Source: Crocinitomicaceae bacterium
Lineage (GTDB): Bacteria > Bacteroidota > Bacteroidia > Flavobacteriales_D > Crocinitomicaceae
Length of the DNA stretch: 64,000 nucleotides
Assembly: GCA_044361115.1 (NCBI GenBank)
Contig: JBIKJH010000001.1
Location: 228,593-292,592, forward strand
Reading direction: 5' to 3'
Part shown: in pieces, positions 30,008-51,477 of the stretch
Position numbering within the stretch: position 1 is the stretch's first letter
How the letters are laid out: each line of letters starts with the position of its first letter
Program-made: the position numbers and the translations under genes
Notes under the pieces: generated by a model
Seen by the model: the letters and a program-made list of their open reading frames with translations, nothing else
Told to the model about the DNA's origin: nothing
The model's database searches: none

Positions 30008-30013
30008 CAAGAA

Positions 30014-32265: not shown

Positions 32266-32384
32266 CGGACTTAATTTTTAAATTATGTAAATAAGTTTCA
32301 CTTCAGTTAGTGCTTCATGGAGTGGTTCATTATTTATTCAGCCTATTCAGGCTACTTAGTAGGATTTAATTCAGTTGACCTAAC

Positions 32385-33257
32385 TTAAAACTTGTACTTT
32401 ATAATTGGATGATTTGATGATAATTTTCTATACACTAATACATTGAAATTATAATACGAATCTTTTCCATCTTTTCCGCGTGTTTCACCCGTGTAATCAA
32501 TGGTTTCATTTAAAGCTGGATTGGCTAAATAAGCCTCATTTGAATTTTGAAATAGATTTGGAGAACAATAGGTTCCGCCAACATCATCAATATAATCAGA
32601 GTAGGTTTTAAAATAAGTAGCTTCAACTCCTATTTGCCAGTACTTATTTACATTATACTTAGCACCAACTCCAAATGGAATGATTAATGTGTTTCGGCGG
32701 TATTTTGTTTTCCCGGGAATTCTACCTTGCCCTTCTGTACCAATGGGTTGAAGTGCCACCCATTTATCATCAACTTTTGCTTTTGGATTGAAAAAAGTGA
32801 CCCCTAAGCCTGAAAAAACATAAACACTTGATAAAAATTTTTTGGACGAAAATTGCTTATACGATTTATGTTTCGGTTGAAATAGACTAATATTCATTCT
32901 ACTTTCCAAACTGACGTAATTTGATCTAAAGTGTAAATTTCTATTTTGTCTAGAGGGCTCTTGTGTAAATTCGTCATTTCCTTTGAATATTCCGTAGGTT
33001 AAAAAAGAAGATGAACAAAACCACCGATTCAATTCAATCAAATATCCTGCTTTTAAATTAAAGGTAGTTGACCTAAAATCTAAATCGCGCAAACTATGCG
33101 CCTGTCCTAATTGATCCGAGCCACCCAAATCGCCAAGAAACTGATTCAAACCGGCACTTACTGCTATTTGTTTGTAGCCAGTGAAGTCATTAAATTGCGC
33201 TGTTAATTGATTTTGACAACACACGATAACGAATAAAATCCAAAAATACTTTTTCAA
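32385..33257 (-). CDS. outer-membrane beta-barrel protein (DUF6089-like)
   Basis: Signal peptide MKKYFWILFVIVCCQNQLTAQ, beta-strand periodicity, and a terminal aromatic residue (..IIKYKF). Confidence 0.65.
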   Translation of the reverse strand: MKKYFWILFVIVCCQNQLTAQFNDFTGYKQIAVSAGLNQFLGDLGGSDQLGQAHSLRDLDFRSTTFNLKAGYLIELNRWFCSSSFLTYGIFKGNDEFTQEPSRQNRNLHFRSNYVSLESRMNISLFQPKHKSYKQFSSKKFLSSVYVFSGLGVTFFNPKAKVDDKWVALQPIGTEGQGRIPGKTKYRRNTLIIPFGVGAKYNVNKYWQIGVEATYFKTYSDYIDDVGGTYCSPNLFQNSNEAYLANPALNETIDYTGETRGKDGKDSYYNFNVLVYRKLSSNHPIIKYKF

Positions 33258-33314
33258 TGTTCAATGTTTTTAAATTAGTATTCAAAGTTGATTGAACTTT
33301 CTTAAAAACATATA

Positions 33315-33330
33315 TACCTAATCATCGGTA
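33315..33330. promoter_or_regulatory. island 7-2-7 palindrome, upstream of the OMP gene
   Basis: TACCTAA-TC-ATCGGTA, ~60 nt upstream of the ATG at 33257. Confidence 0.5.
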
Positions 33331-33351
33331 AAATCAACTATTTTTTTCTTT

Positions 33352-33372
33352 TACCTAGCAATAGGATGGGTA
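33352..33372. promoter_or_regulatory. island 7-2-7 palindrome plus an extra half-site, heading unit A
   Basis: TACCTAG-CA-ATAGGAT, overlapped by ATGGGTA. Confidence 0.5.
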
Positions 33373-33492
33373 TAAAAAGCCGATAACAATTAATTTTGGT
33401 CTGATTACATAGGACTGATCATATGAGTAGTAGTTAGGAGACATTGGTAACATTGTCGAAAATGGGTTCATTCATTTGAACCCATTTTTTTT
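33373..33492 (+). ncRNA. candidate small RNA, unit A (motif, then ~110 nt, then terminator)
   Basis: No ORF longer than 5 codons. It ends in aaatgggttc-attcattt-gaacccattt followed by a T-tract (33460-33492). Confidence 0.4.
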
Positions 33493-33729
33493 ATCCATTT
33501 AGCTCCGAAGCAACTGATTTGAAAATCGTTAAACGACATTCGAAAGAAACCATCAATTGAAGAATGCTTTACATAAAAAGAAACTCTTGAGAAGCGTTTG
33601 AATGAATATCTCCCTAAAATTGCGCGCATTTCAGAGGTGTAAATTGAACCGTAATAAATTATTGAAACCGAATTACAAGGATAACAGAACGTTCATAATT
33701 ACACCATCACCTAAAAATAGAATAGTTGC

Positions 33730-33903
33730 TCAAAGAAATACCAACACTGCTTCTACTGCAATAGTACCATTGGCTTCTAATTGCAATAATTGTCCAGTTT
33801 GAATTGTAGTAGGATGGTTTCCTACTTTTACTTGGGAAGCTGTCCTTGTTGTAAATACTCCTACTAGAAGAAGTAAGAGTAAATAATTGTTTGATTTGTT
33901 CCT
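33730..33903 (-). pseudogene. orphan 5' fragment of a paralogue of the glycine-rich gene (35230..36693)
   Basis: The reverse strand reads (AGG)NKSNNYLLLLLLVGVFTTRTASQVKVGNHPTTIQTGQLLQLEANG...stop. Compare MNKSNSYLFLLLLVGLFTTKAAAQVKIGNNPTTIGNSSLLELES. AGG replaces the ATG. Confidence 0.7.
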
Positions 33904-33917
33904 GCTATATTAGGTTA

Positions 33918-35162
33918 TTAATTCATTTCTTCTAGTACCCAAGTACTATTTGTATTCTTTAAATAATAAAGCGAAGGGGTACCTCTGGTAACATATTTTA
34001 AATAGCTATCTTTTTCCTCCGGGTGATAAAAAACTATGCTAGGATATTTATCTTCTTCAATTTGTGTACTTTCGGTTTCACACTTGGTACAAATGGCTAA
34101 CACCTTCTGTGTGGTATTTTTTAGTTGTTCTAATACCTCTTTACACGAACCACAACTGTTAGAATAAAAAAGTAGCACAATTTTATTCTCGTTTGTTTGA
34201 ATGAAGGATTTTATAGGTATTGGAATATCAAAAGGTTGTCCTATTTTAAAATTTTCATGCATTAAAAGTTTGGATTCCCATGCAATTAATTGATTTTCAC
34301 TAGCCTTTTTTAGTTGTAACATTTTTTTTAGAGCTATAACAAAATAAGTATTAGTACTATTATAATCGTAATTAGTATTAATCCAGTTATCTATAAAGAC
34401 TATGCCTTCTTCGGTTTTACCGATGTTAAAAAGTAAACTATCTATAAAACCTTCAAAATGGCTGAGCTCATTTTCATGCACTTTTTTCTGGTCTATCCAC
34501 CATTTATTTAAAACCCTATTCATCAATGGCGTATGAAATAAATAGGATTCATTGGGTGTAAGATTGTTCCAAAATGTACTTAAATAGACACTATTATCTG
34601 AATTTTCTAGATACATTAAATAATTATCCCATTGGGTACTGTTGTTTTTTATACTCTCCTCCAGCTCCTTTAGCTGTTGATTAATGTTTTGACCCAAAGT
34701 ATCTTTAAGGTTAAACAAACCGTAATCTTTGAAAACCAATTGATTATCGATATTAAATTTTAGCTGTTGCTGGAGTAAATTCCATTTAAATTTCGATTGG
34801 TTAAGTACAAACGATTGCGGCGCATTATCAAAAAACACATAATTGTTAGATGGATTCCAAAAAATAGTGTGTGTATTTTCATTACTGTCTATCACTACAT
34901 CTATAAAAGAAGATTCTTGAAGTATATGATCCTTAGCATAATAAATAGAGTAGATGCCCTCCTTAAGGGTTCGAACATCTAATATTGCTTTACCCTCCGT
35001 TACATTGGCTTGACTAAGGGGTTGATTTTTGGTATTGTTTGGGTAATATGAAAACAAATACACATGTCCTTCCTTAAAAGCAGGAGGTAAATACACTGTT
35101 ATTTGAGCCCTTGCAGACACCAAACACACAAAGCATAGCGCTATGTAAATTAACTTTTTCAT
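33918..35162 (-). CDS. secreted thioredoxin-fold protein (CGSC) with an N-terminal domain of unknown function
   Basis: Signal peptide MKKLIYIALCFVCLVSARAQ. The C-terminal region LLFYSNSCGSCKEVLEQL...TPSLYYL is thioredoxin-like. Confidence 0.75.
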   Translation of the reverse strand: MKKLIYIALCFVCLVSARAQITVYLPPAFKEGHVYLFSYYPNNTKNQPLSQANVTEGKAILDVRTLKEGIYSIYYAKDHILQESSFIDVVIDSNENTHTIFWNPSNNYVFFDNAPQSFVLNQSKFKWNLLQQQLKFNIDNQLVFKDYGLFNLKDTLGQNINQQLKELEESIKNNSTQWDNYLMYLENSDNSVYLSTFWNNLTPNESYLFHTPLMNRVLNKWWIDQKKVHENELSHFEGFIDSLLFNIGKTEEGIVFIDNWINTNYDYNSTNTYFVIALKKMLQLKKASENQLIAWESKLLMHENFKIGQPFDIPIPIKSFIQTNENKIVLLFYSNSCGSCKEVLEQLKNTTQKVLAICTKCETESTQIEEDKYPSIVFYHPEEKDSYLKYVTRGTPSLYYLKNTNSTWVLEEMN

Positions 35163-35176
35163 ATTCTGTTTTAGTA

Positions 35177-35218
35177 AACAGCAACACCCCATTTCTTTGT
35201 GAATGGGGTGTTACTGTT
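35177..35218 (-). terminator. intercistronic hairpin (15-bp stem, one mismatch)
   Basis: aacagcaacacccca-tttctttgtgaa-tggggtgttactgtt, between the stop at 35230 and the start at 35162. There is no clear U-tract. Confidence 0.4.
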
Positions 35219-35229
35219 TGTATTTTATA

Positions 35230-36693
35230 TTAAGGGCAGGTATAAGTAATTACAACCCTTCCATCACCACCAGAACCTCCAGTTGAATCATTACAAGCAG
35301 AATTTATTCCCCCTCCAGCTCCTGAGCCACCTGGTTGTGCACCATTACCTCCATTTCCACTTGAAGATGTACCACCAGCCCCTCCTGAAGGACCCGCACC
35401 AGCTACTCCTCCTCTTCCATTGACATTACAAGATGAAAAAGTGCCATTTACACCACTAGCTCCATTAGTATTTACATCTCCTCCTGTAGCCGTAACAGCA
35501 ACACCGCCTCCAAAAGGAGTAGTACCTTCACCGCCACGACCGCCACGTGCAGTTATGGTGTTAGAGGCATAAGTAATAATAGAATTGCCCCCTGCAACTC
35601 CATCCGCTGTAGTTATACCTCCACTACCTCCATTACCTACAGTATAGCTTATGCTAGTATTACCTGATGAAACCGTATAAAGTTTTAGGGTATAAGCACC
35701 ACTACCCCCTGAACCTCCGATTTGATCGGGTGCACAACCCCCGCAAGCGCCACCGCCACCACCGCCAGCGCCATACGCTTCTGCTTGGAATGATACGATA
35801 TCTGTGCCAGGAATTGTAAGAGTGCCTGAACCTGATGAATTGAAGGTTCTCCTGTAGTCATTAACTGTATATAGTTTTCCAACTCTATAATTGGTGCCAG
35901 TTTTTAAAGCATGTATGTAAACATTACCTGTATTTACTCCTGTTAGCAAACCAGTAGATGAGTTAATAGTAGCATTACCGGTATTATTCGATACCCAACT
36001 AGACAAACCTGTTCCTGTAGCAGTTTGTGTACAGGTCGTTAAAATAGTTTTACTTAAGGTAGGCGTTACAGTTACATCTAAGGTATTTGAACAGGTTAAC
36101 CCATTCTTTACAAAAGTAGCAGTTACCACCCCTGTTGATGGCACTGTGCCGCCTAGGGTGTAGGTAATGGTGAGCGAACCACCACCTGGTATTGCAGTAG
36201 TGGTAGAAGGAGATACAGAAGCGATGGTTAAACCCGATGCCCCTGATAATGTTACATCAGATGTAGCAGGTGTAATAGAACCCTCAAACAAAGAATTGTT
36301 TACTAACGTTACTTTAAAAGATTTAGCTCCTAAAATACTTACAGACTCCCCAGGTGCATAAGTACCCAGAAAACCATTGGTGTTAGGATCGCAGTTGGCA
36401 GAAATTGCACTTGGACCACCCCCACTTAGGCAACCCGACCATGCTCCGTTTTCATAACTTTTTGCGCATTTAGACGACATGTCATACACAAACATTCCAT
36501 CTACAGGGTTTGCTATAGCACTGGTATTTGCAACTCTGGGTAATACTAGCCCTTTGTTGGTGCTTTCCAGTTCTAACAGCGAACTGTTGCCGATGGTGGT
36601 AGGGTTGTTACCAATTTTTACTTGGGCAGCAGCCTTTGTTGTAAATAATCCTACTAATAGTAGTAAGAATAGATAACTGTTTGATTTGTTCAT
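35230..36693 (-). CDS. secreted protein with a C-terminal glycine-rich domain (phage-fibre-associated type); distant member of the island N-terminal family
   Basis: Signal peptide, then QVKIGNNPTTIGNSSLLELESTNKGLVLPRV. C-terminal AYGAGGGGGGACGG..GGSGGSGAY..VGNGGSGG..ARGGRGGEG..GGAGG..GGSGGDGRVVITYTCP. Confidence 0.8.
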   Translation of the reverse strand: MNKSNSYLFLLLLVGLFTTKAAAQVKIGNNPTTIGNSSLLELESTNKGLVLPRVANTSAIANPVDGMFVYDMSSKCAKSYENGAWSGCLSGGGPSAISANCDPNTNGFLGTYAPGESVSILGAKSFKVTLVNNSLFEGSITPATSDVTLSGASGLTIASVSPSTTTAIPGGGSLTITYTLGGTVPSTGVVTATFVKNGLTCSNTLDVTVTPTLSKTILTTCTQTATGTGLSSWVSNNTGNATINSSTGLLTGVNTGNVYIHALKTGTNYRVGKLYTVNDYRRTFNSSGSGTLTIPGTDIVSFQAEAYGAGGGGGGACGGCAPDQIGGSGGSGAYTLKLYTVSSGNTSISYTVGNGGSGGITTADGVAGGNSIITYASNTITARGGRGGEGTTPFGGGVAVTATGGDVNTNGASGVNGTFSSCNVNGRGGVAGAGPSGGAGGTSSSGNGGNGAQPGGSGAGGGINSACNDSTGGSGGDGRVVITYTCP

Positions 36694-36726
36694 AATATAT
36701 TATTTATTTTTAGTTTAAGTTTTTTT

Positions 36727-36799
36727 TCTTTGTGTTCTTTGTGTTCTTTGTGTTCTTTGTGTTCTTTGTGTTCATTGTGTTCTTTTTGTCTTTGTAGTG
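36727..36799. repeat. 9-bp tandem repeat (gtgttcttt, about 6-7 units)
   Basis: tctttgtgttctttgtgttctttgtgttctttgtgttctttgtgttcattgtgttcttt... It directly abuts the homology breakpoint of the neighbouring gene fragment. Confidence 0.85.
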
Positions 36800-36845
36800 T
36801 TTTTTATTTACCAAGGAGGCACTGAGGGCCCTGAGATTTTTAGTT

Positions 36846-37033
36846 TTTAGTTCATTTCCTGTTAAGCGAGGAGCCATAATACCATCTGCAATGGTCGTAG
36901 CTCAAGGGTCTCCAACAACCTGAAGCCTTGTATGCGGACTTATCGTTCCTTCGCCAACTTGTGCATGTACTTGTGCGCTGAAAAAGAGTGCACTGAAAAA
37001 GAGAATGTTTGTTTTCATAAAGTTGTATTTCAT
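36846..37033 (-). pseudogene. orphan 5' fragment of a tail-fibre-like paralogue (in-frame stop, truncated)
   Basis: MKYNFMKTNILFFSALFFSAQVHAQVGEGTISPHTRLQVVGDP*ATTIADGIMAPRLTGNELK. There are long identical nucleotide runs with 38684-38800, for example ttcatttcctgttaagcgaggagccataat. Confidence 0.8.
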
Positions 37034-37063
37034 ATATTATTTGGTTTGCTTTTATTTACTAAT

Positions 37064-37101
37064 TCAAAGAAATCGAATCTAAGCTGATTCGATTTCTTTG
37101 A
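37064..37101 (-). terminator. 14-bp perfect hairpin 22 nt after the stop of the 37123 gene
   Basis: caaagaaatcgaat-ctaagctg-attcgatttctttg. There is no U-tract on either strand. Confidence 0.45.
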
Positions 37102-37122
37102 AATGGGATTAAAAAAATGGGT

Positions 37123-38958: not shown

Positions 38959-38974
38959 TACCTACTACTAGGTT
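38959..38974. promoter_or_regulatory. island 7-2-7 palindrome upstream of P1
   Basis: TACCTAC-TA-CTAGGTT, ~105 nt upstream of the ATG at 38853. Confidence 0.5.
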
Positions 38975-39338: not shown

Positions 39339-39370
39339 TACCTAATATTGGGTATACCTACCAATGGGAT
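39339..39370. promoter_or_regulatory. two abutting island palindromes upstream of the sensor kinase
   Basis: TACCTAA-TA-TTGGGTA, immediately followed by TACCTAC-CA-ATGGGAT. The second ends 35 nt before the ATG at 39405. Confidence 0.55.
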
Positions 39371-39404
39371 AATCGCATTAGTTTTGGTCTTAAATAAAAA
39401 TAAA

Positions 39405-41369
39405 ATGACCGCTCACGTTAAATTTAGAATGCTGCTTTTTACCCTTGCTCTAGCGTTCAGCCACACCACTTTTGCATTGCAAAATCCGTTTTTTAAAAAC
39501 ATTCCACAATTAACGGATCCCGAAGTTTATTTGAAACAAATTAAACACTTTGCCGAAACAGATGATTGTTTGATTCATACCAAGCATTTTATGAAAATTT
39601 ATGCGCGTAATGGGTTAAAACTTTTACCTCAGCATATTAATGAACTCCGCGCAATTAATAAATTATTAATTAGCAAATCGACTGAATATAGGGGCTATGC
39701 TATTTATTCGAATGCCTTATGTTTTTTCTCTGAAGGCAACTATCAGCAGGCTTTAACCATTTTAAATAAGGAACTAGTTAAACTTGGTAAAAAAGGAAAT
39801 CCAGAGCTTAAGTTTTATTTAGTAGGGTTGAAAGCATCGTGTTATTACTTTCTTGGAGACTTTGACCAATCAACTAAATTTTACTTGAAGGCCTTAAAAA
39901 CGTATAAGGTGGAGTATGATCGAAAGTATACCATTTATCAAAACATTGGATCTAATTTTTATGCTCTACGTTTGTCGGATAAAGCGCTTGAATACTATTT
40001 AAAAGCAGATGAACATTATAAGCATAAAAAAAATGATATACTGATGTTTATCACTTGGATCTATACAGATTTTCAGGATTTTAAAAATGCGGATAAGTAT
40101 GCTGGCTATTTAATAGCGAATCAATCAATGATGACGGATTTTGAATTAACAGCACTATACGAAACACTGGCTAAAATTGAACATATTAAACAAAATAACG
40201 TGAAAGCTTTAGAGCTGATGGATCAATCAATAGCTATCCTAAAAAATAACAATGTTTCTACTTTCGATTTGATAAATATAGATTATATATTAATCTCAAA
40301 GTTGGCTATTAAAGGTGAAATTTTAATGGATTTAAAGAAGTATAGCGCAGCCTTAGATGTTTTTAATGAAGGTTTGGCAATTGCTAAAAAAACCAATAGG
40401 ACAATAAGTGAAATTGAAATTTATCAAAATCTATACAATGTATCCAAATTATTAGGTCAAAATGACAAGGCTCTTTTTTATTTAGAGCGTTTTAATAAAT
40501 TAGAAGACGATCTACATAAAAAAGAACTTAAAAGTGAAATTGTCAAGCTTGAACGGGTGTACAATTTTGAAAAGAAAAATACGGATATAAAAATTCTGCA
40601 AAATGATAAAAAAATCAAGCAAATTGAAATTCAAAAATCCAAGCAGTATATACTTTTGTTAACTATCACAATCTTACTTGTTTCAATTGGTTTGTTCACA
40701 CTTTTCAAATTGAATATTGATAGCAAGAAAAAAAATGCGCTGAAGATAGATTTACTAGTAAAGAATACAGAATTACAGTTAGTGAAATCACAATTGATGG
40801 GACAAGAAATTGAAAAATCGCGCATTTCACAAGAATTACATGATGGGGTGGCAAATAATCTTTTATCCTTGATATATGCGAATGAAAATACGCTAAAAGA
40901 ACCTTTACGGGCAATTTATAACGAAATACGCATTATTTCCCATAACTTATCGACTGTTGCAATTCGGAACAATAGTTCATTAAAGGAAATAGTGCTGGAA
41001 CTATTTTATCGTATTTTTGACGAACAAGAAGTGACGCTTGACTTGATATGGGATAAAAAAAATGAAACATTTATGTGTGAAGAAGAGGTTAATTTAGTGC
41101 TTTATCGTGTTTTTCAAGAGTTGTTTATCAACATTGTAAAGCATGCTGAAGCAACCTCTGTGATTATTGAATTTCAAAAAGATGCACATGAGTTTACAAT
41201 CGTTATTGCAGATGATGGAAAGGGTCCTGATAAAAAAACGCAAGGAATTGGACTTAGCAATATTGAGGATCGAATTAAAACGATAACTGGTCGTTTTAGT
41301 ATTCTTTTTAACACCCAATACAAGCAAAAGACAATGGGTGCTGTTTCAAGTATTGTTATTCCTATTTAA
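39405..41369 (+). CDS. TPR-containing sensor histidine kinase (HisKA_3 / HATPase_c)
   Basis: Signal/TM segment, TPR-like helical repeats, TM helix ILLLTITILLVSIGLFTLF, H-box SRISQELHDGVANNL, and ATPase motifs ADDGKG..GIGLSNIEDR. Confidence 0.88.
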   Translation: MTAHVKFRMLLFTLALAFSHTTFALQNPFFKNIPQLTDPEVYLKQIKHFAETDDCLIHTKHFMKIYARNGLKLLPQHINELRAINKLLISKSTEYRGYAIYSNALCFFSEGNYQQALTILNKELVKLGKKGNPELKFYLVGLKASCYYFLGDFDQSTKFYLKALKTYKVEYDRKYTIYQNIGSNFYALRLSDKALEYYLKADEHYKHKKNDILMFITWIYTDFQDFKNADKYAGYLIANQSMMTDFELTALYETLAKIEHIKQNNVKALELMDQSIAILKNNNVSTFDLINIDYILISKLAIKGEILMDLKKYSAALDVFNEGLAIAKKTNRTISEIEIYQNLYNVSKLLGQNDKALFYLERFNKLEDDLHKKELKSEIVKLERVYNFEKKNTDIKILQNDKKIKQIEIQKSKQYILLLTITILLVSIGLFTLFKLNIDSKKKNALKIDLLVKNTELQLVKSQLMGQEIEKSRISQELHDGVANNLLSLIYANENTLKEPLRAIYNEIRIISHNLSTVAIRNNSSLKEIVLELFYRIFDEQEVTLDLIWDKKNETFMCEEEVNLVLYRVFQELFINIVKHAEATSVIIEFQKDAHEFTIVIADDGKGPDKKTQGIGLSNIEDRIKTITGRFSILFNTQYKQKTMGAVSSIVIPI

Positions 41370-41380: not shown

Positions 41381-42049
41381 ATGTTAGATATACTTCTCGT
41401 AGATGATCATAAATTATTCCTCGAAGGAATCAAGGGTATTTTAATTCAAAATCCAAAAGTAAATAGCGTTACTATGTTGACCGAACCCAAAAAAGTATTG
41501 CCTTTTTTGATTTCGCATAAAACGGATGTTTTGTTTACCGACTTAAATATGCCTGATTTCGACGGAATTGACTTAATACAAAAAGTAAGAAATGAACATC
41601 CTAAAGTAAAAATTTGTGTTCTGACAATGTATTATAACTTTAATCTGTTGGCCTCACTAAAAAAGCACCATGTTGATGCTTATTTACATAAAAGTATGGA
41701 GGTTTCAGAGTTTGACGATGCACTGGAAGCCATTAACAGAAATGAACGTTATTATTCCTATGAACCTGCAAAAGTTAATCAAGCGTACGATCTTATTGTA
41801 AACAAGGAAAAAGAAGGCGAAAACATTAAAGACGATTTTATCCGAAAACACATGCTTTCACCACGCGAATTTGAGGTATTGAAATTAATTGTTGAAAATT
41901 ATTCCACAAAAGAAATTGCTGAGAAACTCTTCTTATCCGAACTAACAATATCAACGTATAGGAAATACATCATTAAAAAAACGGGATGTAAAACGGCCGT
42001 TGAATTGTATAAATATGCACTTGATGCCGGAATAATGAAACACGATTAG
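41381..42049 (+). CDS. NarL/FixJ (LuxR-type HTH) response regulator
   Basis: REC domain ILLVDDHKLF...DLNMPDFDG. C-terminal GerE HTH LSPREFEVLKLIVENYSTKEIAEKLFLSELTISTYRKYI. Confidence 0.9.
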   Translation: MLDILLVDDHKLFLEGIKGILIQNPKVNSVTMLTEPKKVLPFLISHKTDVLFTDLNMPDFDGIDLIQKVRNEHPKVKICVLTMYYNFNLLASLKKHHVDAYLHKSMEVSEFDDALEAINRNERYYSYEPAKVNQAYDLIVNKEKEGENIKDDFIRKHMLSPREFEVLKLIVENYSTKEIAEKLFLSELTISTYRKYIIKKTGCKTAVELYKYALDAGIMKHD

Positions 42050-46819: not shown

Positions 46820-46910
46820 AATTAAAATTTGTAGTGTGGTTTTTAAAATAACCTGTTAATAAACAATTAATAATGAGAGCAAAATTATCAGGGTCTTACA
46901 ACTTCATATC

Positions 46911-46926
46911 TACCTACTGCTAGGTA
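46911..46926. promoter_or_regulatory. island 7-2-7 palindrome upstream of the P3-P5-P2 operon
   Basis: TACCTAC-TG-CTAGGTA, ~95 nt upstream of the ATG at 46819. It is near-perfectly symmetric. Confidence 0.55.
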
Positions 46927-47426
46927 TATTTTTAACAAATGCAAAAAAAGTTTTTGCCCAAAAATTTATCTAGGAAAGTAGTTCACTTTATTTTAGTGAA
47001 ATTGCATATGGATTTTGAAGTGTTAAGATGATACGTTATTTAATACATTGAGCGAAATAGCCAAACCAATTAAAATGTTGCACAAGCGCTACATAATTCT
47101 GTAATATGTTTTCTTCTTTTTTGAAGCATTTCAATGTCATAGGTTCGTTTAAAAGAGGAATAAATGGAAAAAAAGAGAATCCATTTGAATATTTTCAATG
47201 ACAACTTTTGAATTTAAGTCGTTGCAACATAAAGTAACATCGCCAATTGGCAAAAACACCAATTGATCGATCAGCAAGTTGCATCCCATTTTAAATCGTT
47301 TTTGAATCAATTTTGTTCCTTCATTTACCTTACCATTTTTGAGGTTGGATTCTAGGATTGATGAAATCACCTTGCTGCATAAAACCTAAGTGTAGGATAG
47401 TTAACTCATTCCATTTTGACATGGTA

Positions 47427-47547
47427 AAATAAAAAAGCCCACCTTTTACTCGAGGTGGGCTCCAAAGTAATCTTAATTACTTGTACCTAACTTTACTAAC
47501 CACTACACTAGCATACAATTTTAAGGACTCTCAACAATAAACTATTA
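47427..47547 (-). ncRNA. candidate small RNA, unit B
   Basis: Downstream (minus strand) of the palindrome at 47548-47563. It has no meaningful ORF and ends in agcccacc-N10-ggtgggct followed by TTTTTTATTTT on the minus strand (47427-47461). Confidence 0.45.
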
Positions 47548-47563
47548 TACCTATTAGTAGGTT
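47548..47563. promoter_or_regulatory. island 7-2-7 palindrome heading unit B
   Basis: TACCTAT-TA-GTAGGTT. Confidence 0.5.
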
Positions 47564-47731
47564 ATTATTAATTTAATCGCGTCATTTTTGCTTCTCGGAG
47601 AAAGAGGCAAACAAACCTAAAAATGACGAAACTCCAGTTTTAATAAACCCTGCAGGATCTTTTTTTTGTCTACAATAGGTTGTTTTTTTGAAATGTGATG
47701 CATGGATCATTCGGTTAAGATTTATGCAATT

Positions 47732-47747
47732 TACCTACCAATGGGTA
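47732..47747. promoter_or_regulatory. island 7-2-7 palindrome upstream of the S8 protease
   Basis: TACCTAC-CA-ATGGGTA, ending 44 nt before the ATG at 47791. The right half is exactly AKRRGTA. Confidence 0.55.
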
Positions 47748-47790
47748 TAGTTGTTGTGAGCTGATAGCCATCAACTTTGCGCAAAAAAAC

Positions 47791-49893
47791 ATGAAGTTAA
47801 GTTGGTTTACGTTTGTCTTTTTATTAATTGGTCATCAACTCTATTGTCAAGAAAATTATACAATTTGGGTAACAAGTAAAAGTGATAATTTAGCGTCCAA
47901 TCGCCCAAAAGAATTCGATCATTATTCTTTGATAAAACTATCGAAAGCATTTCCATCCTCGAAAATGGCAAACTTGCAAAAGGTTTATGAACTTGAATTT
48001 TCAACGAATGCTCAGGCCCTTATTGATTCAATAAATAGTGGCGTTTACACCGATTTATATTATGCTGTTCAAGCGCCCGAACTAGCGCCGCTGTTTGTGC
48101 CCAATGATTATGCCTTGGTTAGTGGACCAAATTATGCGCTGGGATTGATAAATGCGTCGAGTGCTTGGGAGCTGACCCATGGTGACAGTTTAATTCGCAT
48201 TGGTATTTTGGATACTAATTATGATCTAAATCATGAGGATTTGCAAACTAAAATTGCTTTTATCGAACCTACGAACACCAATTCACAAACAGTTCATGGA
48301 ACGGCCGTTGCGATAACAGCTGCGGGAGGAACAAATAACAATGTTGGTATCAGTTCAATTGGTTTTAACACAAAAGTTGAATTGCGGTCAATGAATTATA
48401 ATCAGATTTTGGAGGCTTCGTATTCAGGCGCCAAGGTAATTAATTTAAGTTGGGCTTCTGGATGTGCATATAATCAATATTGCCAGGATATAATTGATGA
48501 GGCCTATTTCAATGGATCAATAATTGTTGCTGCGGCAGGAAACGGAAGCACATGTGGAGGAGCAACAAACTATGTTTATCCAGCAAGTTTTAATCATGTT
48601 TTTTCAGTAAGTAGTATTGGACCTTTGAATAATCATGAGCGAACCATCGGAATTCCGAGTACAACACATCAACACAATGATAGTGTAGATCTTTGTGCTC
48701 CTGGGTATGATGTATTATTGTCTACTGCAAACGGTGTTTACTTAACTGGGAATGGAACTTCCTTTGCGGCACCATTTGTATCTGGTACAATTGCGCTTAT
48801 GCTCGCGGTTAATCCATGTTTAAATTTTGAGCAAATCGATGAGATTTTTAAATTATCCTCTTTTGATTTGGATACCATTAATCCGAGTTATTCTGGCCTT
48901 TTGGGTCATGGCCGGTTGGATGCAGGTTTAGCTGTTTCGTTGGCGGCCAATTATTCAACCATTCCCTTTAACTACCACGAATCATTTAGTTGTTCAGATT
49001 CAAGCTATACTGTACTAATTGACAATGTAGGAGCTTCAAATTACGACGTTGTTTGGGAGGATGGAACTATTGGTAATACTTTAACAGCGGTTTCTGAAGG
49101 TTCACTAGTACGGGGGGAAATAATATCAACAGAAGGCTGCTTCTCAACATTCGAACTAAGTTTAGATTCAATTGCGCCCTTGGAAATTATAACTGAAAAA
49201 ACGGATGTTACGTGCTTTGGTCAAAACAGCGCTAGTATTTCTGCTGAACTGAACTCATCAGATATTGCCTATAGCTGGAGTAACGGAGAAACTGGATTAC
49301 ACTTGAATAATTTATATGCTGGAAACTATACTTTAACCGTTTACCGATATGAGGATTGTATCGATAGTATAGAATTTACAATTACACAACCTGAAGAAAT
49401 TGTAATTGACATTGCTATTGAACAAACTAGCCTAGCGGGTCCCATTACACTTCATTCAATTATCAATGGCGGTGTACCTGACTATACGTACAGCTGGAAT
49501 ACGGGTGAAACGGACAGCCTACTTCAAGGCGTTTTAGGAGGATTTTATGAACTTGAAGTGACTGATTTTAAGGGTTGTACAGATAGCAAAAATATATACG
49601 TCCCAGCTCATACATTTAACGTCCTGAATAGCCCAAATGCGAACAATTACGCTCTTATAGAGAATACTGTTGTAAATAACGAGTTGTATTATTATGACAA
49701 ACGCTTGTATTTCAGTTCACTTGACATAGAAGCGTATTCTTTGTACAATTCAATTGGTCAAAAAGTGCAAATCAACGTTGAGAAAAACGATAATTTCTTC
49801 GATTTATCTGGTCTAGTCAGTGGTAACTATTTCGTTTTTATATTCTTAAAGAATGGAAAGCAAATTTCAATGCCAATTCTTGTTTACGAATAA
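47791..49893 (+). CDS. S8 subtilisin-family peptidase with SprB repeats and a T9SS C-terminal domain
   Basis: Catalytic triad contexts GILDTN, HGTAVA and GTSFAAPFVSG. SprB-type repeats (TCFGQNSASI..YSWSNGETG..AGNYTLTV). A CTD at the end. Confidence 0.88.
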   Translation: MKLSWFTFVFLLIGHQLYCQENYTIWVTSKSDNLASNRPKEFDHYSLIKLSKAFPSSKMANLQKVYELEFSTNAQALIDSINSGVYTDLYYAVQAPELAPLFVPNDYALVSGPNYALGLINASSAWELTHGDSLIRIGILDTNYDLNHEDLQTKIAFIEPTNTNSQTVHGTAVAITAAGGTNNNVGISSIGFNTKVELRSMNYNQILEASYSGAKVINLSWASGCAYNQYCQDIIDEAYFNGSIIVAAAGNGSTCGGATNYVYPASFNHVFSVSSIGPLNNHERTIGIPSTTHQHNDSVDLCAPGYDVLLSTANGVYLTGNGTSFAAPFVSGTIALMLAVNPCLNFEQIDEIFKLSSFDLDTINPSYSGLLGHGRLDAGLAVSLAANYSTIPFNYHESFSCSDSSYTVLIDNVGASNYDVVWEDGTIGNTLTAVSEGSLVRGEIISTEGCFSTFELSLDSIAPLEIITEKTDVTCFGQNSASISAELNSSDIAYSWSNGETGLHLNNLYAGNYTLTVYRYEDCIDSIEFTITQPEEIVIDIAIEQTSLAGPITLHSIINGGVPDYTYSWNTGETDSLLQGVLGGFYELEVTDFKGCTDSKNIYVPAHTFNVLNSPNANNYALIENTVVNNELYYYDKRLYFSSLDIEAYSLYNSIGQKVQINVEKNDNFFDLSGLVSGNYFVFIFLKNGKQISMPILVYE

Positions 49894-49965
49894 CAATAAA
49901 AAATATTCAAGTCTTTATCTAATGGAATTCATTTCGGTGAAAAAGAGTGCAAATACTTTATGAAA

Positions 49966-49982
49966 TACCCAATGATTAGGTA
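49966..49982. promoter_or_regulatory. island palindrome (7-3-7 variant) heading unit C
   Basis: TACCCAA-TGA-TTAGGTA. Confidence 0.45.
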
Positions 49983-50096
49983 GATCAATACTTTGCTTTT
50001 TAAGCTAACTTTATATGAGGGACTTATGGTTTCAGTTCCCTTTTATGTTTTTCAATAACAGGTGTTGAAGATTTCAATGCCTGTTATTCTTTTTCT
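49983..50096 (+). ncRNA. candidate small RNA, unit C
   Basis: About 110 nt whose only ORF is a 17-codon one not conserved in the other units. It ends in aataacagg-N17-cctgttatt followed by cttttt (50054-50096). Confidence 0.4.
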
Positions 50097-50203
50097 GTAA
50101 GCCACCACATCTGCTAAGAAATGTTTATAAAGTCTTTTTCCATTTCGTAAACACAACTCATATTTTCCTTTAACAGCGTGAAATTGGGCTATTATTACCA
50201 AAA

Positions 50204-51136
50204 TTACGAAAGGTGTAATTCAACCATTTTCATATAGAATTTTAGGCATTCTTTAATATGAATAAGAATCATATATTCATTGTTTATTGGTTGGATAGTG
50301 ATCGTGAAGTTTTCATAATTGATGTATTTACTAGATGTAGATTTTAGACCCGGTAGGGATAAGGTTGAAAAGAAATCTTTGTACAACTTGTTGATTTCGA
50401 TGCTATTTAATGGGCTCGACACAATAGCAGTAATAAAAACTCCACTGCATCTATCCAGGTACATACAATTTGTAAAATGATCAATTTGATAAGAAAACTC
50501 GTGTTTTCTTTTTGAAACAGCTTTTAAACGATAGAATACTTCCCTTAGTTCATTTAACACAATATTCTCAGCTGCTCTTGTATCGAATGCATCATTTTTG
50601 GTTTCCACTTGTGGATAAAATGTAGAAAAGTATTCTTTACCAACTACCACTTTCATGGAATTGATTTTCACAAGTGATTCAGCCAATGGACTAAAAAGAA
50701 AATGCCCGGATCCAGCAATTGGATAAGGTAATGTTACTTTAGAAAATTGGTTATTTTGACTAGCTTGGTGATTTTGAAGGTTGTAATCATACCATGATGC
50801 AAATGTAAAAGCCCTACTCATGTCAATTATTTTAATTTGTTTGTCTCTTGAATCGATTGTTGCAAAGTTTTTGCGGACTGAATCTGGATTAGCACATACC
50901 AAGAGTGTATCCAATTTTTCAAAATTAAATTTGGATCTAAATTTGAAATTTCGATCGACTTGGTCTTTTTCTCTAACATCTTTTTCAAAAAAATCCTTTT
51001 CTAATGCTCTTTTGTCAATTTGTTGATCGATTACACATTGAATGGTATCAAGATTTTTTATGCGTAATAAGGAATTGAATAATTTTTTCGATTGCTGATT
51101 CTTGGATAAGAATAAGCCTACTTTTCTGCGTGGCAT
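50204..51136 (-). CDS. hypothetical protein; possible degenerate ArgC-like (N-acetyl-gamma-glutamyl-phosphate reductase fold) pseudoenzyme
   Basis: It looks collinear with ArgC landmarks recalled from memory: LLVCANPDS / IKIIDMSRAF (cf. iDLSaDfR), LPYPIAGSGHFLFSPLAE (cf. NPGCYpT..L.L.PL), and SGVFITAIV (cf. RGI.aT). The GxxGxxG motif and the catalytic Cys are missing. Confidence 0.6.
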   Translation of the reverse strand: MPRRKVGLFLSKNQQSKKLFNSLLRIKNLDTIQCVIDQQIDKRALEKDFFEKDVREKDQVDRNFKFRSKFNFEKLDTLLVCANPDSVRKNFATIDSRDKQIKIIDMSRAFTFASWYDYNLQNHQASQNNQFSKVTLPYPIAGSGHFLFSPLAESLVKINSMKVVVGKEYFSTFYPQVETKNDAFDTRAAENIVLNELREVFYRLKAVSKRKHEFSYQIDHFTNCMYLDRCSGVFITAIVSSPLNSIEINKLYKDFFSTLSLPGLKSTSSKYINYENFTITIQPINNEYMILIHIKECLKFYMKMVELHLS

Positions 51137-51200
51137 GTATTGATTTTTTTAGTGTACTAATTTCAACCTCAAAAATCCTTTTATTTGCTTAATCCATGTA

Positions 51201-51216
51201 TACCTACTTGTAGGAA
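51201..51216. promoter_or_regulatory. island 7-2-7 palindrome upstream of the ArgC-like gene
   Basis: TACCTAC-TT-GTAGGAA, ~65 nt upstream of the ATG at 51136. Confidence 0.5.
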
Positions 51217-51312
51217 GATTCTAACTAATTTGAAAAAATCTACATTCTTGAGTTGATCTAGCAAATAAAAGAATGAACAACTGAAGTAATTAAGCGAAAG
51301 TATCTTTACCGA

Positions 51313-51461
51313 ATAAAAAAGTCTCTGAACATTAACTATCCAGAGACTTTGCCGAAAATTAACTGATTCGTCAGTATGCCTTACCTAAACTTAACAATTG
51401 TAATTACGAACCATTCATAATTAATTGGTTCAAACTTCATGTTATTTGAGTTATTTGAGAC
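51313..51461 (-). ncRNA. candidate small RNA, unit D
   Basis: Downstream (minus strand) of the palindrome at 51462-51477. It ends in agtctctg-N13-cagagact followed by TTTTTTATT on the minus strand (51313-51348). The only ORF is a 19-codon one. Confidence 0.45.
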
Positions 51462-51477
51462 CTACCTATTTATAGGG
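51462..51477. promoter_or_regulatory. island 7-2-7 palindrome heading unit D
   Basis: TACCTAT-TT-ATAGGGA. Confidence 0.5.

What the first reader, a model, noticed from the sequence alone, without database searches (positions are those of the whole stretch)
32349..51477. A 16-bp 7-2-7 palindrome (TACCYAn-NN-nTRGGTA) occurs at least 11 times, only in intergenic DNA of the island, and resembles NarL heptamer pairs
Copies read by eye:
- 33315 TACCTAA-TC-ATCGGTA
- 33352 TACCTAG-CA-ATAGGAT
- 38959 TACCTAC-TA-CTAGGTT
- 39339 TACCTAA-TA-TTGGGTA
- 39355 TACCTAC-CA-ATGGGAT
- 46911 TACCTAC-TG-CTAGGTA
- 47548 TACCTAT-TA-GTAGGTT
- 47732 TACCTAC-CA-ATGGGTA
- 49966 TACCCAA-TGA-TTAGGTA (one extra spacer base)
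- 51201 TACCTAC-TT-GTAGGAA
- 51462 TACCTAT-TT-ATAGGGA
- a weaker copy at ~32349 (GCTAC-TTA-GTAGG) upstream of the M43 protease.
Each copy lies 35-105 nt upstream of a start codon or at the head of an ORF-less unit. E. coli NarL/NarP bind TACYYMT heptamers, with the best sites arranged as 7-2-7 inverted repeats. The half-site and spacing here fit that arrangement. The only NarL/LuxR-type response regulator in the window (41381..42049) is encoded in the middle of the motif field. I infer that this is the operator of that regulator and that it defines an island-restricted regulon.
Basis: partly seen in the sequence, partly recalled or inferred. Interest (0 to 1): 0.8.

Follow-up and report, generated by a model that had tools for sequence, protein, structure and literature searches.

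The report
Operator of a Bacteroidota two-component regulator
A 16-bp palindrome (TACCTA-N4-TAGGTA) sits at one fixed distance upstream of every promoter in an 18-kb gene island, and is most likely where the island's own NarL-type response regulator binds to switch on surface and secreted protein genes, its own operon and four small RNA-like transcripts; the mechanism is ordinary, but this regulator family and its targets have not been described.

Summary
A weight matrix finds 10 sites of 15.8-21.7 bits, all intergenic and all between 33315 and 51478. The next best hit in the 64 kb scores 12.7. The 17-bp copy at 49966 is a one-base-insertion variant. The weak copy at 32349 is not supported.

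The new result is geometry. Ten of 11 sites lie exactly 23-24 nt upstream of a Bacteroidota sigma-A -7 box (TAnnTTTG); the eleventh, 38959, has a decayed box at 23 nt. No -33 element lies between. Ten sites are therefore centred at about -43.5/-44.5, as NarL 7-2-7 activator sites are. The second site at the kinase promoter (39355) is centred at -28.5.

Between strains about 88% identical, the arms show no change in 72 positions and the central 4 nt show 7 changes in 24.

The same palindrome class with the same geometry recurs beside homologues of the regulator down to 38% identity, including at their own kinase promoters. It is about 80-fold rarer around 63 other NarL-family loci.

Four sites head conserved ORF-less units of 80-116 nt that end in terminators; these are candidate sRNAs.

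Binding, transcription starts and genome-wide restriction to the island are untested. This is a new member of a known kind.

The parts
33315..33330 (-). Operator site. Read towards its promoter it is TACCGATGATTAGGTA. It lies 24 nt from the -7 box CAACTTTG (33283-33290), so its centre is about -44.5. It drives the PorG-like/DUF6089 outer-membrane protein gene 32385-33257 and probably the M43 peptidase gene 31186-32265.
   Evidence: identical in L071 and L075
33352..33367 (+). Operator site TACCTAGCAATAGGAT. It lies 23 nt from a perfect -7 box TAATTTTG (33391-33398), centre about -43.5. It heads ORF-less unit A.
   Evidence: in L071 and L075 only the central bases differ
33403..33495 (+). ORF-less unit A, a candidate sRNA of about 93 nt. 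It contains GUAGUUAGGAG, a strain-variable (GTA)n run, and a terminator hairpin AAATGGGTTCA...TGAACCCATTT followed by T8.
   Evidence: the L069 counterpart carries AGTAGTTAGG and its own terminator
38959..38974 (-). Operator site AACCTAGTAGTAGGTA. It lies 23 nt from a decayed -7 box TAATTTCA (38928-38935), centre about -43.5. It drives the tail-fibre-like S74 gene 37123-38886 and probably the Gly-rich gene 35230-36693 and the thioredoxin-like gene 33918-35192.
   Evidence: the promoter is paralogous to that of site 46911; the whole block 33492-39224 is absent from L071
39339..39354 (+). Operator site TACCTAATATTGGGTA at the activating position of the kinase-regulator operon. It lies 24 nt from a perfect -7 box TAGTTTTG (39379-39386), centre about -44.5.
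39355..39370 (+). Second operator site TACCTACCAATGGGAT, abutting the first. It lies 8 nt from the same -7 box, centre about -28.5, covering the place of the -33 element. Probably cooperative binding or negative feedback.
39405..41369 (+). Sensor histidine kinase. By reading the sequence: an N-terminal signal or transmembrane segment, a TPR region, a transmembrane segment near residue 440, then HisKA_3 and HATPase_c domains.
   Evidence: gene called as 654 aa in L001 and L071
41381..42049 (+). NarL/FixJ-type response regulator (REC + GerE/LuxR HTH), the proposed binder of the palindrome. The receiver residues D8, D9, D54 and K104 are conserved.
46911..46926 (-). Operator site TACCTAGCAGTAGGTA, the best site at 21.7 bits. 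It lies 23 nt from a perfect -7 box TAATTTTG (46880-46887), centre about -43.5. It drives genes 45656-46819, 44161-45627 (type IX secretion C-terminal domain) and 42596-44119 (S74).
47548..47563 (-). Operator site AACCTACTAATAGGTA. It lies 24 nt from the -7 box TAAAATTG (47516-47523), centre about -44.5. It heads ORF-less unit B.
47426..47511 (-). ORF-less unit B, a candidate sRNA of about 86 nt. It contains AAGUUAGGUACA and ends in a strong intrinsic terminator (stem 47463-47434 followed by a T run).
   Evidence: nearly invariant between the window and L071
47732..47747 (+). Operator site TACCTACCAATGGGTA. It lies 24 nt from the -7 box CAACTTTG (47772-47779), centre about -44.5. It drives the S8 subtilase gene 47791-49893.
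49966..49982 (+). 17-bp variant site TACCCAATGATTAGGTA, with one extra base in the distal half. The proximal half TAGGTA lies 23 nt from the -7 box TAACTTTA (50006-50013). It heads ORF-less unit C.
   Evidence: L071 has the 16-mer TACCGATGATTAGGTA followed by a perfect TAAATTTG
50018..50097 (+). ORF-less unit C, a candidate sRNA of about 80 nt. It has a 5' hairpin GGGACU...GUUCCC and a 16-bp terminator stem (50054-50088).
51201..51216 (-). Operator site TTCCTACAAGTAGGTA. It lies 23 nt from the -7 box GATTTTTG (51170-51177), centre about -43.5. It drives the 310-aa gene of unknown function 50204-51136.
51463..51478 (-). Operator site TCCCTATAAATAGGTA. It lies 24 nt from the -7 box GAAGTTTG (51431-51438), centre about -44.5. 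It heads ORF-less unit D.
51311..51426 (-). ORF-less unit D, a candidate sRNA of about 116 nt. It has a 5' hairpin, the conserved stretch CAAUUGUUAAGUUUAGGUAAGG, the hairpin CUGACGAAUCAG and a terminator (51350-51318).
   Evidence: homologues in L071, L075 and L069, with a compensatory change in the terminator stem

Best explanation
The palindrome TACCTA-N4-TAGGTA is the DNA operator of a dimeric helix-turn-helix activator. That activator is most likely the phosphorylated NarL/FixJ-type response regulator encoded at 41381-42049, which is paired with the TPR-containing HisKA_3 kinase at 39405-41369.

Shown by sequence analysis:
- Each site lies 23-24 nt upstream of a sigma-A -7 box (TAnnTTTG).
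- No -33 TTG lies between the site and the box.
- The half-site nearer the promoter, T[AG]GGTA, is intact in 9 of the 10 promoter-heading sites. The distal half tolerates mismatches.

Inferred:
- The box spans -12 to -5 in flavobacteria (PMC9723704). The site therefore covers about -36 to -52, centred at -43.5/-44.5.
- From there a bound dimer would replace the missing -33 contact and recruit RNA polymerase, in the manner of a class II activator. NarL does this from 7-2-7 sites at napF and yeaR (PMC4549865).
- The kinase presumably senses an envelope or extracellular cue through its TPR domain and phosphorylates Asp54 of the regulator.
- The regulator then turns on every transcription unit between about 31.2 and 51.5 kb. 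There are six protein units: the PorG-like outer-membrane protein with the M43 protease, two operons of tail-fibre-like (PTL_trimer/S74) and type-IX-secreted proteins, the S8 protease, a 310-aa protein of unknown function, and the kinase-regulator operon itself. There are also four ORF-less units of 80-116 nt that end in terminators.
- At its own promoter a second, abutting site centred at -28.5 probably adds cooperative binding or negative feedback at high regulator levels.
For: 1. Motif statistics. Ten sites score 15.8-21.7 bits against 12.7 for the next hit. All are intergenic and lie within 18 kb of the 64-kb window.

2. Fixed geometry.
- Ten of 11 sites have a 5/6 or better match to TAnnTTTG exactly 23-24 nt away in one orientation. 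The eleventh, 38959, has a decayed box TAATTTCA at 23 nt.
- A random intergenic position shows this 4.9% of the time. That gives P of about 1e-11 to 1e-12.
- Of the 58 T[AG]GGTA hexamers in the window, 9 have the box at that distance, and 8 of those 9 are listed sites.
- Predicted centres are -43.5/-44.5. This uses the -12 to -5 box position from PMC9723704.

3. Footprint between strains. In window versus L071 alignments (about 88% identical), the arms of the six strong orthologous sites scored show 0 changes in 72 positions. Their central 4 nt show 7 changes in 24. With the weak 47383 site included, the computed figures are 1/84 against 9/28, Fisher P = 1e-5.

4. Autoregulation and sole regulator. 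A tandem site pair lies at the kinase-regulator promoter. No other regulator was found among the island ORFs scanned.

5. Co-inheritance with the regulator family. Sites with the same 23-24 nt spacing occur beside these homologues:
- L069, 58% identical: two sites 23 nt from perfect TAAATTTG boxes, heading homologues of units A and D.
- L077, 41%: TACCTAGGTCTAGGTA upstream of its kinase gene, plus two more sites.
- L079, 43%: a site upstream of a PTL_trimer operon and one heading an sRNA-like unit.
- L081, 38%: TACCCT-N4-AGGGTA in two divergent regions between a PTL_trimer gene and a kinase gene.
- L082, 39%: a site upstream of a SprB-like gene.

6. Control loci. Six family loci (93 kb) give 16 hits of 12 bits or more with the right geometry. 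Sixty-three other NarL-family loci (1.05 Mb) give 2. One of those 2 is the kinase promoter region of a 35%-identical Pedobacter homologue.

7. Fit to the protein family. The closest solved structure is NarL (E = 7e-18), followed by EvgA, RcsB and VraR. The NarL output domain binds the 16-bp palindrome TACCCCTAAAGGGGTA as a dimer. It activates from 7-2-7 sites at about -40 to -49 (PMC4549865).
Against: - There is no binding or expression data. Transcription starts are predicted from -7 boxes only.
- One homologue contig, L070 (51% identity, 5 kb, 27% GC), has no recognisable site.
- The DNA-contact residues differ from NarL: K188/V189/K192 correspond to S/T/K here. I found no simple co-variation between recognition helix and half-site variants such as TACCTA, TACCCT or TCACTA/TAGCGA.
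- The strain comparison involves close relatives, and the flanking promoter DNA is also well conserved.
- Genome-wide restriction could not be tested.
- A regulator encoded outside the window cannot be excluded.
Confidence: 0.72

Rival explanations
1. The sites are operators, but for a different transcription factor encoded elsewhere in the genome. The neighbouring response regulator would have other targets.
For: No binding data exist. L070 carries a 51%-identical homologue and no site. I saw no clear co-variation between recognition helix and half-site.
Against: - The regulator is the only one found among the island ORFs scanned, and a tandem site lies at its own promoter.
- The motif travels with homologues of this regulator in five further lineages and sits at kinase promoters in L077, L081 and L030.
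- It is about 80-fold rarer around other NarL-family loci.
- The half-site and spacing are typical of GerE/NarL-type HTH dimers.
Confidence: 0.12
2. The local regulator binds the sites but acts mainly as a repressor. The island would be silenced until the regulator is released.
For: The site at 39355 overlaps the core of the kinase promoter (centre -28.5). NarL represses some promoters, such as frdA, from 7-2-7 sites (PMC4549865).
Against: - Ten of 11 sites lie wholly upstream of the core promoter at one fixed distance.
- The promoters lack a -33 element, which is the signature of activator dependence.
- Repressor sites normally overlap the -33 to +1 region and have no need for fixed phasing at -44.
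Confidence: 0.08
3. The palindromes belong to a dispersed repeat or MITE, or are recombination sites for phase-variable inversion of the promoters.
For: The sites are short perfect palindromes clustered in an island next to tRNA-Lys and an integrase fragment. Gene content differs between strains.
Against: - Similarity between copies stops at about 22 nt. I saw no terminal repeats or target duplications.
- Every shared block is collinear and in the same orientation in the window and L071, so no inversion is seen between sites.
- No intact recombinase is present.
- The fixed distance to -7 boxes is unexplained by this model.
Confidence: 0.02
4. The palindromes act as RNA or DNA hairpins, for example terminators, attenuators or processing sites.
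For: A 6-bp stem with a 4-nt loop can form.
Against: - The sites lie upstream of the predicted transcription starts.
- Mismatches in one arm are not compensated in the other, as in TACCTA/ATCCTA, TTCCTA/TACCTA and TCCCTA/TACCTA.
- No T run follows them. The real terminators of the units lie elsewhere.
Confidence: 0.01

Closest known systems
E. coli NarL/NarP 7-2-7 heptamer pairs (consensus TACYYMT-N2-AKRRGTA; engineered palindrome TACCCCTAAAGGGGTA)
   Same: - A 16-bp inverted repeat with TACC...GGTA ends and the same half-site spacing.
- Bound by a dimer of a REC + GerE response regulator.
- Activating sites centred near -42.5/-44.5, at yeaR and napF (PMC4549865).
- NarL is the closest solved structure to this regulator.
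   Different: - The regulator scores 84.7 bits against the NCBIfam NarL model, whose cut-off is 250.
- Contact residues K188 and V189 are replaced by S and T.
- The kinase has a TPR sensor. It scores far below the NarX model cut-off (22.7 against 578 bits).
- Heptamer position 7 is not conserved.
- The targets are surface and secreted proteins and small RNAs, not respiratory genes.
- The promoters are of the Bacteroidota -33/-7 type.
E. coli EvgA box (18-bp inverted repeat TTCYTACA-N2-TGTARGAA; from my own knowledge, Masuda and Church 2003)
   Same: - A similar half-site core, YTAC/GTAR, next to TTC or TAC.
- A similar recognition-helix motif: T-V-S-T-Y-K in EvgA against T-I-S-T-Y-R here.
- Same protein family.
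   Different: The EvgA hexamer cores lie 2 bp further apart. The kinase type (EvgS) and the regulon are unrelated.
Class II activator-dependent promoters (activator centred near -41.5 to -44.5, weak or absent upstream hexamer)
   Same: A fixed site position abutting where the upstream promoter element should be. No -33 TTG is present. The promoter-proximal half-site is the better conserved one.
   Different: The promoters here are of the Bacteroidota sigma-A type (TAnnTTTG at -12 to -5; PMC9723704). For these, activator-polymerase contacts are essentially uncharacterised.
Other GerE/LuxR-type HTH operators (B. subtilis GerE half-site TRGGY; RcsB, VraR and LiaR boxes; from my own knowledge)
   Same: The core T[AG]GGT matches the GerE-type TRGGY core, and dimers bind inverted repeats.
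   Different: Different spacing and regulons. GerE has no receiver domain.

Membership tests
NarL/FixJ (LuxR-type) response regulator family | N-terminal receiver domain with the acidic pocket, the phospho-accepting Asp and the conserved Lys | tested here: met
   Pfam Response_reg, E = 2.6e-19. D8, D9, D54 and K104 are invariant across the homologues aligned.
NarL/FixJ (LuxR-type) response regulator family | C-terminal GerE/LuxR four-helix HTH output domain | tested here: met
   Pfam GerE, E = 5.6e-15. Full-length alignments to NarL, EvgA, RcsB and VraR structures.
NarL/FixJ (LuxR-type) response regulator family | An adjacent cognate HisKA_3-type histidine kinase | tested here: met
   The kinase at 39405-41369 has HisKA_3, HATPase_c and TPR domains. 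The two genes are 11 nt apart on the same strand.
NarL orthologue (nitrate/nitrite regulator) | Equivalog-level similarity to NarL or NarP and a NarX/NarQ-type sensor | tested here: not met
   NCBIfam NarL 84.7 bits against a cut-off of 250. NarP 59.2 against 343. The kinase against NarX scores 22.7 against 578.
NarL-type 7-2-7 operator | Inverted heptamers separated by 2 bp, giving a 16-bp dyad | tested here: met
   Ten 16-bp dyads, with the same end-to-end layout as TACCCCTAAAGGGGTA.
NarL-type 7-2-7 operator | Half-site matches TACYYMT | tested here: inconclusive
   By my count from the half-sites listed, the hexamer TACYYM is matched by 13 of 20 half-sites. The seventh base T is present in only 3 of those 13. 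The consensus here is TACCTA(n).
NarL-type 7-2-7 operator | Bound by a dimer of the cognate phosphorylated regulator | not testable with these tools
   Needs EMSA, footprinting or DAP-seq.
Class II activator site | Site centred about -41.5 to -44.5 from the transcription start, next to or overlapping the upstream promoter element | tested here: met
   Centres of -43.5/-44.5 are predicted from the -7 boxes. The transcription starts are inferred from PMC9723704, not measured.
Class II activator site | Transcription depends on the activator | not testable with these tools
   The only sequence hint is the missing -33 TTG.
MITE or dispersed repeat | Copies share an extended body with terminal inverted repeats and target-site duplications | tested here: not met
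   Shared similarity is limited to about 22 nt and the flanks are unrelated.
Small regulatory RNA (units A-D) | Own promoter, intrinsic terminator, no conserved ORF, and conservation above that of the flanks | tested here: met
   - Promoters.
- Terminators.
- No ORF longer than 17 codons.
- Conservation and a compensatory pair in unit D across four genomes.
- Units B and C nearly invariant between the window and L071.
- No Rfam family matched.
Small regulatory RNA (units A-D) | A detectable transcript and a target | not testable with these tools
   No expression data. A search for sequence complementary to the shared GUUAGGU gave no obvious target in the island.

The most novel reading that the evidence does not exclude
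The window may hold one instance of a previously undescribed, conserved and portable Bacteroidota regulatory module. Its parts would be:
- a TPR-sensor kinase;
- a NarL-type regulator;
- the regulator's TACC-N8-GGTA operator placed at -44 of promoters that lack a -33 element;
- a family of co-regulated small RNAs sharing an unpaired G(U)UAGGU motif.

Together these would control interchangeable cassettes of phage-tail-fibre-like (PTL_trimer/S74) and type-IX-secreted surface proteins. Cargo cassettes would carry their own copy of the operator, so newly acquired genes would come under the resident regulator at once. The module could then serve rapid, signal-dependent remodelling of the cell surface, for example in response to phage or to other cells.
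Probability: 0.3. Interest if true: 0.65.

Novelty: new member of a known kind. Interest (0 to 1): 0.5.

Why it matters
Transcription-factor operators and activator-dependent promoter architecture are poorly charted in Bacteroidota. Their sigma-A recognises -33/-7 elements rather than -35/-10.

This locus offers a clean case that can be tested directly. It has 11 sites, one fixed position, an obvious cognate regulator and defined target promoters. It would:

- give the first operator for a widespread but uncharacterised family of TPR-kinase/NarL-type systems that is genetically linked to tail-fibre-like surface proteins;
- suggest that class II-type activation geometry carries over to Bacteroidota promoters;
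- nominate four candidate sRNAs, one conserved across at least three lineages, for a phylum in which few sRNAs are known.

If the regulator does not bind, the very tight geometry would still demand another explanation.

Tried and rejected
1. Close relatives in reference genomes. The search with the regulator protein returned nothing above 39% identity. The repeated PWM hit at about 9537 in the Chitinophaga loci lies inside the kinase coding sequence (..DDTYRQVRD..). It is a coding coincidence.

2. Metagenome scan for the unit D core. The pattern ATTGTTAAGNTTAGGTAAGG gave three hits with no homology beyond the pattern. This used the only metagenome scan.

3. Rfam search of 30-53 kb. Only sub-threshold chance hits appeared.

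4. Small ORFs in the ORF-less units. Nothing plausible was found, and the 30-aa ORF at 47330-47422 is not conserved in L071.

5. Weak candidates:
- The weak site at 47383 has no -7 box at the right distance by eye.
- The weak site at 32349 scores below 8 bits.
- The pattern hits at 49475 and 58825 are coding.
All were rejected.

6. sRNA targets. A search for sequence complementary to GUUAGGU gave no pattern near the starts of island genes.

7. Island boundaries. No direct repeat of the tRNA-Lys 3' end was found.

8. Literature. A search for the motif sequence and one for PTL_trimer/PF26696 gave nothing usable.

9. Recognition code. I looked for co-variation between recognition-helix residues and half-site variants and found none that was clear.

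10. Organism identity. The cluster look-up gave no taxon names. From type IX secretion domains and 36% GC the organism is an uncultured Bacteroidota, probably from fresh water.

Full report
**Observation**

The motif is real.
- TACCYANNNNTRGGTA with up to 2 mismatches occurs 12 times, against 4.2 expected. None of 100 shuffles reached 12.
- A symmetric weight matrix built from the sites separates 10 sites of 15.8-21.7 bits from everything else in the 64 kb. These are 33315, 33352, 38959, 39339, 39355, 46911, 47548, 47732, 51201 and 51463. The next hit scores 12.7 and is coding.
- The 17-bp copy at 49966 is the only 6-5-6 match. In a relative it is a normal 16-mer.
- The 'weaker copy' at 32349 scores below 8 bits and has no promoter element at the right distance by eye. 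I reject it.
- All 10 strong sites are intergenic, although intergenic DNA is only 18.5% of the window.
- Similarity between copies ends after about 22 nt, so this is not a MITE.

**Context**

- The window is Bacteroidota-like: 36% GC, type IX secretion C-terminal domains and a PorG-like protein.
- The region from about 31 to 51.5 kb follows tRNA-Lys (29935-30008) and an integrase arm-binding fragment (30157-30462).
- It encodes an M43 protease, a PorG-like/DUF6089 outer-membrane protein, a thioredoxin-like protein and a glycine-rich protein. It also encodes two S74 'tail-fibre chaperone' proteins and a related 387-aa protein, a type-IX-secreted protein, an S8 subtilase and a 310-aa protein of unknown function.
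- The S74 proteins and the 387-aa protein are all marked PTL_trimer in precomputed annotations.
- In the middle lie a TPR/HisKA_3 kinase (39405-41369) and a REC + GerE response regulator (41381-42049).
- No other DNA-binding regulator was found among the island ORFs scanned.

**Geometry, the main new result**

- I oriented each palindrome and looked downstream for the Bacteroidota sigma-A -7 box, TAnnTTTG. Ten of 11 sites have a 5/6 or better match exactly 23 or 24 nt away in one orientation.
- The eleventh, 38959, has TAATTTCA at 23 nt. That promoter is visibly paralogous to the one at site 46911.
- A random intergenic position meets this criterion 4.9% of the time, giving P of about 1e-11 to 1e-12.
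- Conversely, of the 58 T[AG]GGTA hexamers in the window, only 9 have such a box at that distance, and 8 of those are listed sites.
- In Flavobacterium psychrophilum the box occupies -12 to -5 (PMC9723704). On that basis the sites are centred at -43.5/-44.5.
- No -33 TTG lies in the gap; the site abuts the place where it should be.
- Read towards the promoter, the proximal half is a perfect T[AG]GGTA at 9 of the 10 promoter-heading sites. The distal half varies (TACCGA, AACCTA, TTCCTA, TCCCTA).
- This is the anatomy of a class II, activator-dependent promoter.
- E. coli NarL binds the 16-bp palindrome TACCCCTAAAGGGGTA as a dimer. It activates napF and yeaR from 7-2-7 sites at about -40 to -49 and -38 to -47 (PMC4549865).

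**Assignment of sites to transcription units**

| Site (strand) | Unit driven |
|---|---|
| 33315 (-) | PorG-like gene 32385-33257, probably also the M43 gene 31186-32265 |
| 33352 (+) | ORF-less unit A |
| 38959 (-) | 37123-38886 and probably 35230-36693 and 33918-35192 |
| 39339 (+) | kinase-regulator operon; 39355 abuts it, centred at -28.5 |
| 46911 (-) | 45656-46819, 44161-45627, 42596-44119 |
| 47548 (-) | ORF-less unit B |
| 47732 (+) | S8 protease gene 47791-49893 |
| 49966 (+) | ORF-less unit C |
| 51201 (-) | 50204-51136 |
| 51463 (-) | ORF-less unit D |

Every transcription unit I could define in the island is headed by a site.

**The ORF-less units**

- Each runs 80-116 nt from the predicted start to an intrinsic terminator. 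Unit B ends at 47463-47434, unit C at 50054-50088 and unit D at 51350-51318. Unit A ends in the hairpin AAATGGGTTCA...TGAACCCATTT followed by T8.
- None has an ORF longer than 17 codons.
- None matches an Rfam family.
- Units B and C are almost invariant between strains whose flanks differ.
- Unit D has homologues in L071, L075 and L069. The core CAATTGTTAAGKTTAGGTAAGG is conserved, and the terminator stem carries a compensatory U-A to C-G change.
- Units A, B and D, and their counterparts elsewhere, share G(T)TAGGT(A/T) in a stretch mostly predicted to be unpaired.
- They are candidate sRNAs. I found no target.

**Comparative evidence linking motif and regulator**

*How rare the regulator is.* Among 5.8 billion proteins, homologues above 40% identity are few. 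They fall at 98, 58 and 52%, and a profile search added others at about 40-47% to P0002, which is 38-43% to the window protein.

*Close strains (L071, L075, L076; 85-92% DNA identity).*
- They keep the sites at syntenic promoters with the same spacing.
- In the six strong sites scored, the arms show 0 changes in 72 positions and the central four bases show 7 changes in 24.
- With the weak 47383 site included, the computed figures are 1/84 against 9/28, Fisher P = 1e-5.
- Gene content differs between these strains. The block 33492-39224, with its own site, is missing from L071. L075 carries other cargo. L071 has a radical-SAM gene that is mostly deleted in the window. The operator-promoters persist through these changes.

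*More distant lineages.*

| Locus | Regulator identity to window | Sites with the 23-24 nt geometry |
|---|---|---|
| L069 | 58% | Two degenerate sites, ATACTAGTTGTAGGTA and ATCCTACTTAAAGGTA. Each lies 23 nt from a perfect TAAATTTG and heads a homologue of unit A or D. |
| L077 | 41% | TACCTAGGTCTAGGTA upstream of its kinase gene. TACCGAGACCTAGGTA upstream of a small gene. TACCTAGGAATAGGTA heading an sRNA-like unit with GGTTAGGTTT. |
| L079 | 43% | TCACTACTACTAGGTA upstream of a PTL_trimer operon. CACCTAATAGTAGGTA heading an sRNA-like unit. |
| L081 | 38% | TACCCT-N4-AGGGTA in two divergent regions between a PTL_trimer gene and a kinase gene. The locus has three kinase-regulator pairs. |
| L082 | 39% | TCACCACCTCTAGGTA upstream of a SprB-like gene. 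|
| L070 | 51% | None (5-kb contig). |

*Controls.*
- 1.05 Mb around 63 other NarL-family regulators contains 21 hits of 12 bits or more, and only 2 have the geometry. Six family loci (93 kb) give 16 of 21.
- One of the 2 control hits lies in the kinase promoter region of a 35%-identical Pedobacter homologue.
- The recurrent Chitinophaga hit is inside the kinase coding sequence.

**Comparison with known systems**

- The regulator is a canonical NarL/FixJ-family member. It has a receiver domain with D8, D9, D54 and K104, a GerE HTH and an adjacent HisKA_3 kinase.
- Its closest solved relatives are NarL, EvgA, RcsB and VraR.
- It is not a NarL orthologue. It scores 84.7 bits against a cut-off of 250, and the sensor is a TPR kinase rather than NarX. 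NarL contact residues K188 and V189 are S and T here, while K192 is kept. The helix reads T-I-S-T-Y-R-K, which is closer to EvgA.
- So it works like a NarL 7-2-7 activator site but does not belong to the Nar system.
However, position 7 is not conserved, so 6-4-6 describes it better.

**Rivals**

- A regulator encoded elsewhere cannot be excluded without binding data. The autoregulatory tandem site and co-inheritance across lineages argue against it.
- A purely repressive role fits only the -28.5 site.
- Repeat-element, recombination-site and hairpin explanations fail. Their grounds are the flank comparison, collinearity between strains, uncompensated arm mismatches and the position upstream of the predicted starts.

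**Verdict**

- Mechanistically this is an ordinary two-component activator and its operator, so I class it as a new member of a known kind.
- The value lies in three things: the unusually clean promoter geometry in a phylum where activator sites are scarcely known, the conserved link between this kinase/regulator family and tail-fibre-like surface-protein cassettes, and four candidate sRNAs.
- Interest 0.5. Confidence in the stated mechanism about 0.72.

Noticed in passing
window 29935-30008 and 30157-30462: tRNA-Lys(ttt) is followed directly by a 101-aa ORF containing only an integrase Arm-DNA-binding domain. This looks like the scar of an island integrated at a tRNA. I found no direct repeat of the tRNA 3' end to mark the other boundary.
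   Followed up: partly
window ~47070-47346; L071 16594-17592: The close relative L071 has a radical-SAM/SPASM gene downstream of unit B. The window lacks about 870 bp of it, and only the 3' 260 bp or so remain. So part of the 970-bp 'ORF-less' gap at 46820-47790 is a gene remnant.
   Followed up: partly
window 33403-33495, 47426-47511, 51311-51426; L069 1486-1562 and 1745-1850; L077 ~10660-10735 (-); L079 ~11290-11385 (-): The operator-driven ORF-less units in four lineages share G(U)UAGGU(A/U), which contains the operator half-site TAGGTA, in a stretch mostly predicted to be unpaired. This could be a seed sequence or a downstream half-site. No complementary target was found in the island.
   Followed up: partly
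window 33425-33435; L071 ~7740-7790: A (GTA)n microsatellite lies inside unit A and varies between strains: 3 copies in the window and many more (roughly 16 by eye) in L071.
   Followed up: no
window 36702-36808: A 9-bp tandem repeat (TTTGTGTTC, about 10 copies) lies immediately upstream of the glycine-rich protein gene 35230-36693. It could be a contingency locus.
   Followed up: no
window 36840-36961 and 33803-33912: Two orphan gene fragments. The first is a 91% copy of the 5' end of the S74 gene (38675-38796). The second is an 81% copy of 36593-36702, at the 5' end of the glycine-rich gene. Together with the conserved N-termini of three paralogues (family D1), this suggests cassette shuffling among the tail-fibre-like genes.
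   Followed up: no
window 33492-39224, compared with L071, L075 and L076: A 5.7-kb block is present only in the window lineage. It holds site 38959 and the S74, glycine-rich and thioredoxin-like genes. The relatives carry other cargo, such as an AhpC/thioredoxin gene after the regulator. The cargo is modular, and the window's extra block brings its own operator.
   Followed up: partly
L079 11446-11461 and 12400-12415; L082 8134-8149: A second palindrome, TCACTA-N4-TAGCGA, shows the same 23-24 nt distance to a -7 box in two lineages whose regulators are 39-43% identical to the window's. It may be a diverged operator of the same family.
   Followed up: partly
L081 1-19413: Three TPR-kinase/NarL-type regulator pairs are interleaved with five PTL_trimer/S74 genes, a redoxin gene and a SiaC-like gene. 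TACCCT-N4-AGGGTA sites lie in two divergent intergenic regions between a PTL_trimer gene and a kinase gene. The link between this regulator family and PTL_trimer genes is conserved.
   Followed up: partly
L030 8020-8035 (Pedobacter sp. Leaf170): TACCGAGTATTAGGTA lies in the divergent intergenic region upstream of a TPR-kinase/regulator pair (35% identity), with -7-like boxes at 23 and 24 nt on either side. This is a cultured organism in which the operator hypothesis could be tested.
   Followed up: partly
L006, L020, L022 and others, ~9537: A recurrent strong PWM hit (TACCTACCGCCAGGTA) in Chitinophaga loci lies inside the HisKA_3 coding region (..DDTYRQVRD..). Genome-wide scans should watch for this false positive.
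   Followed up: yes
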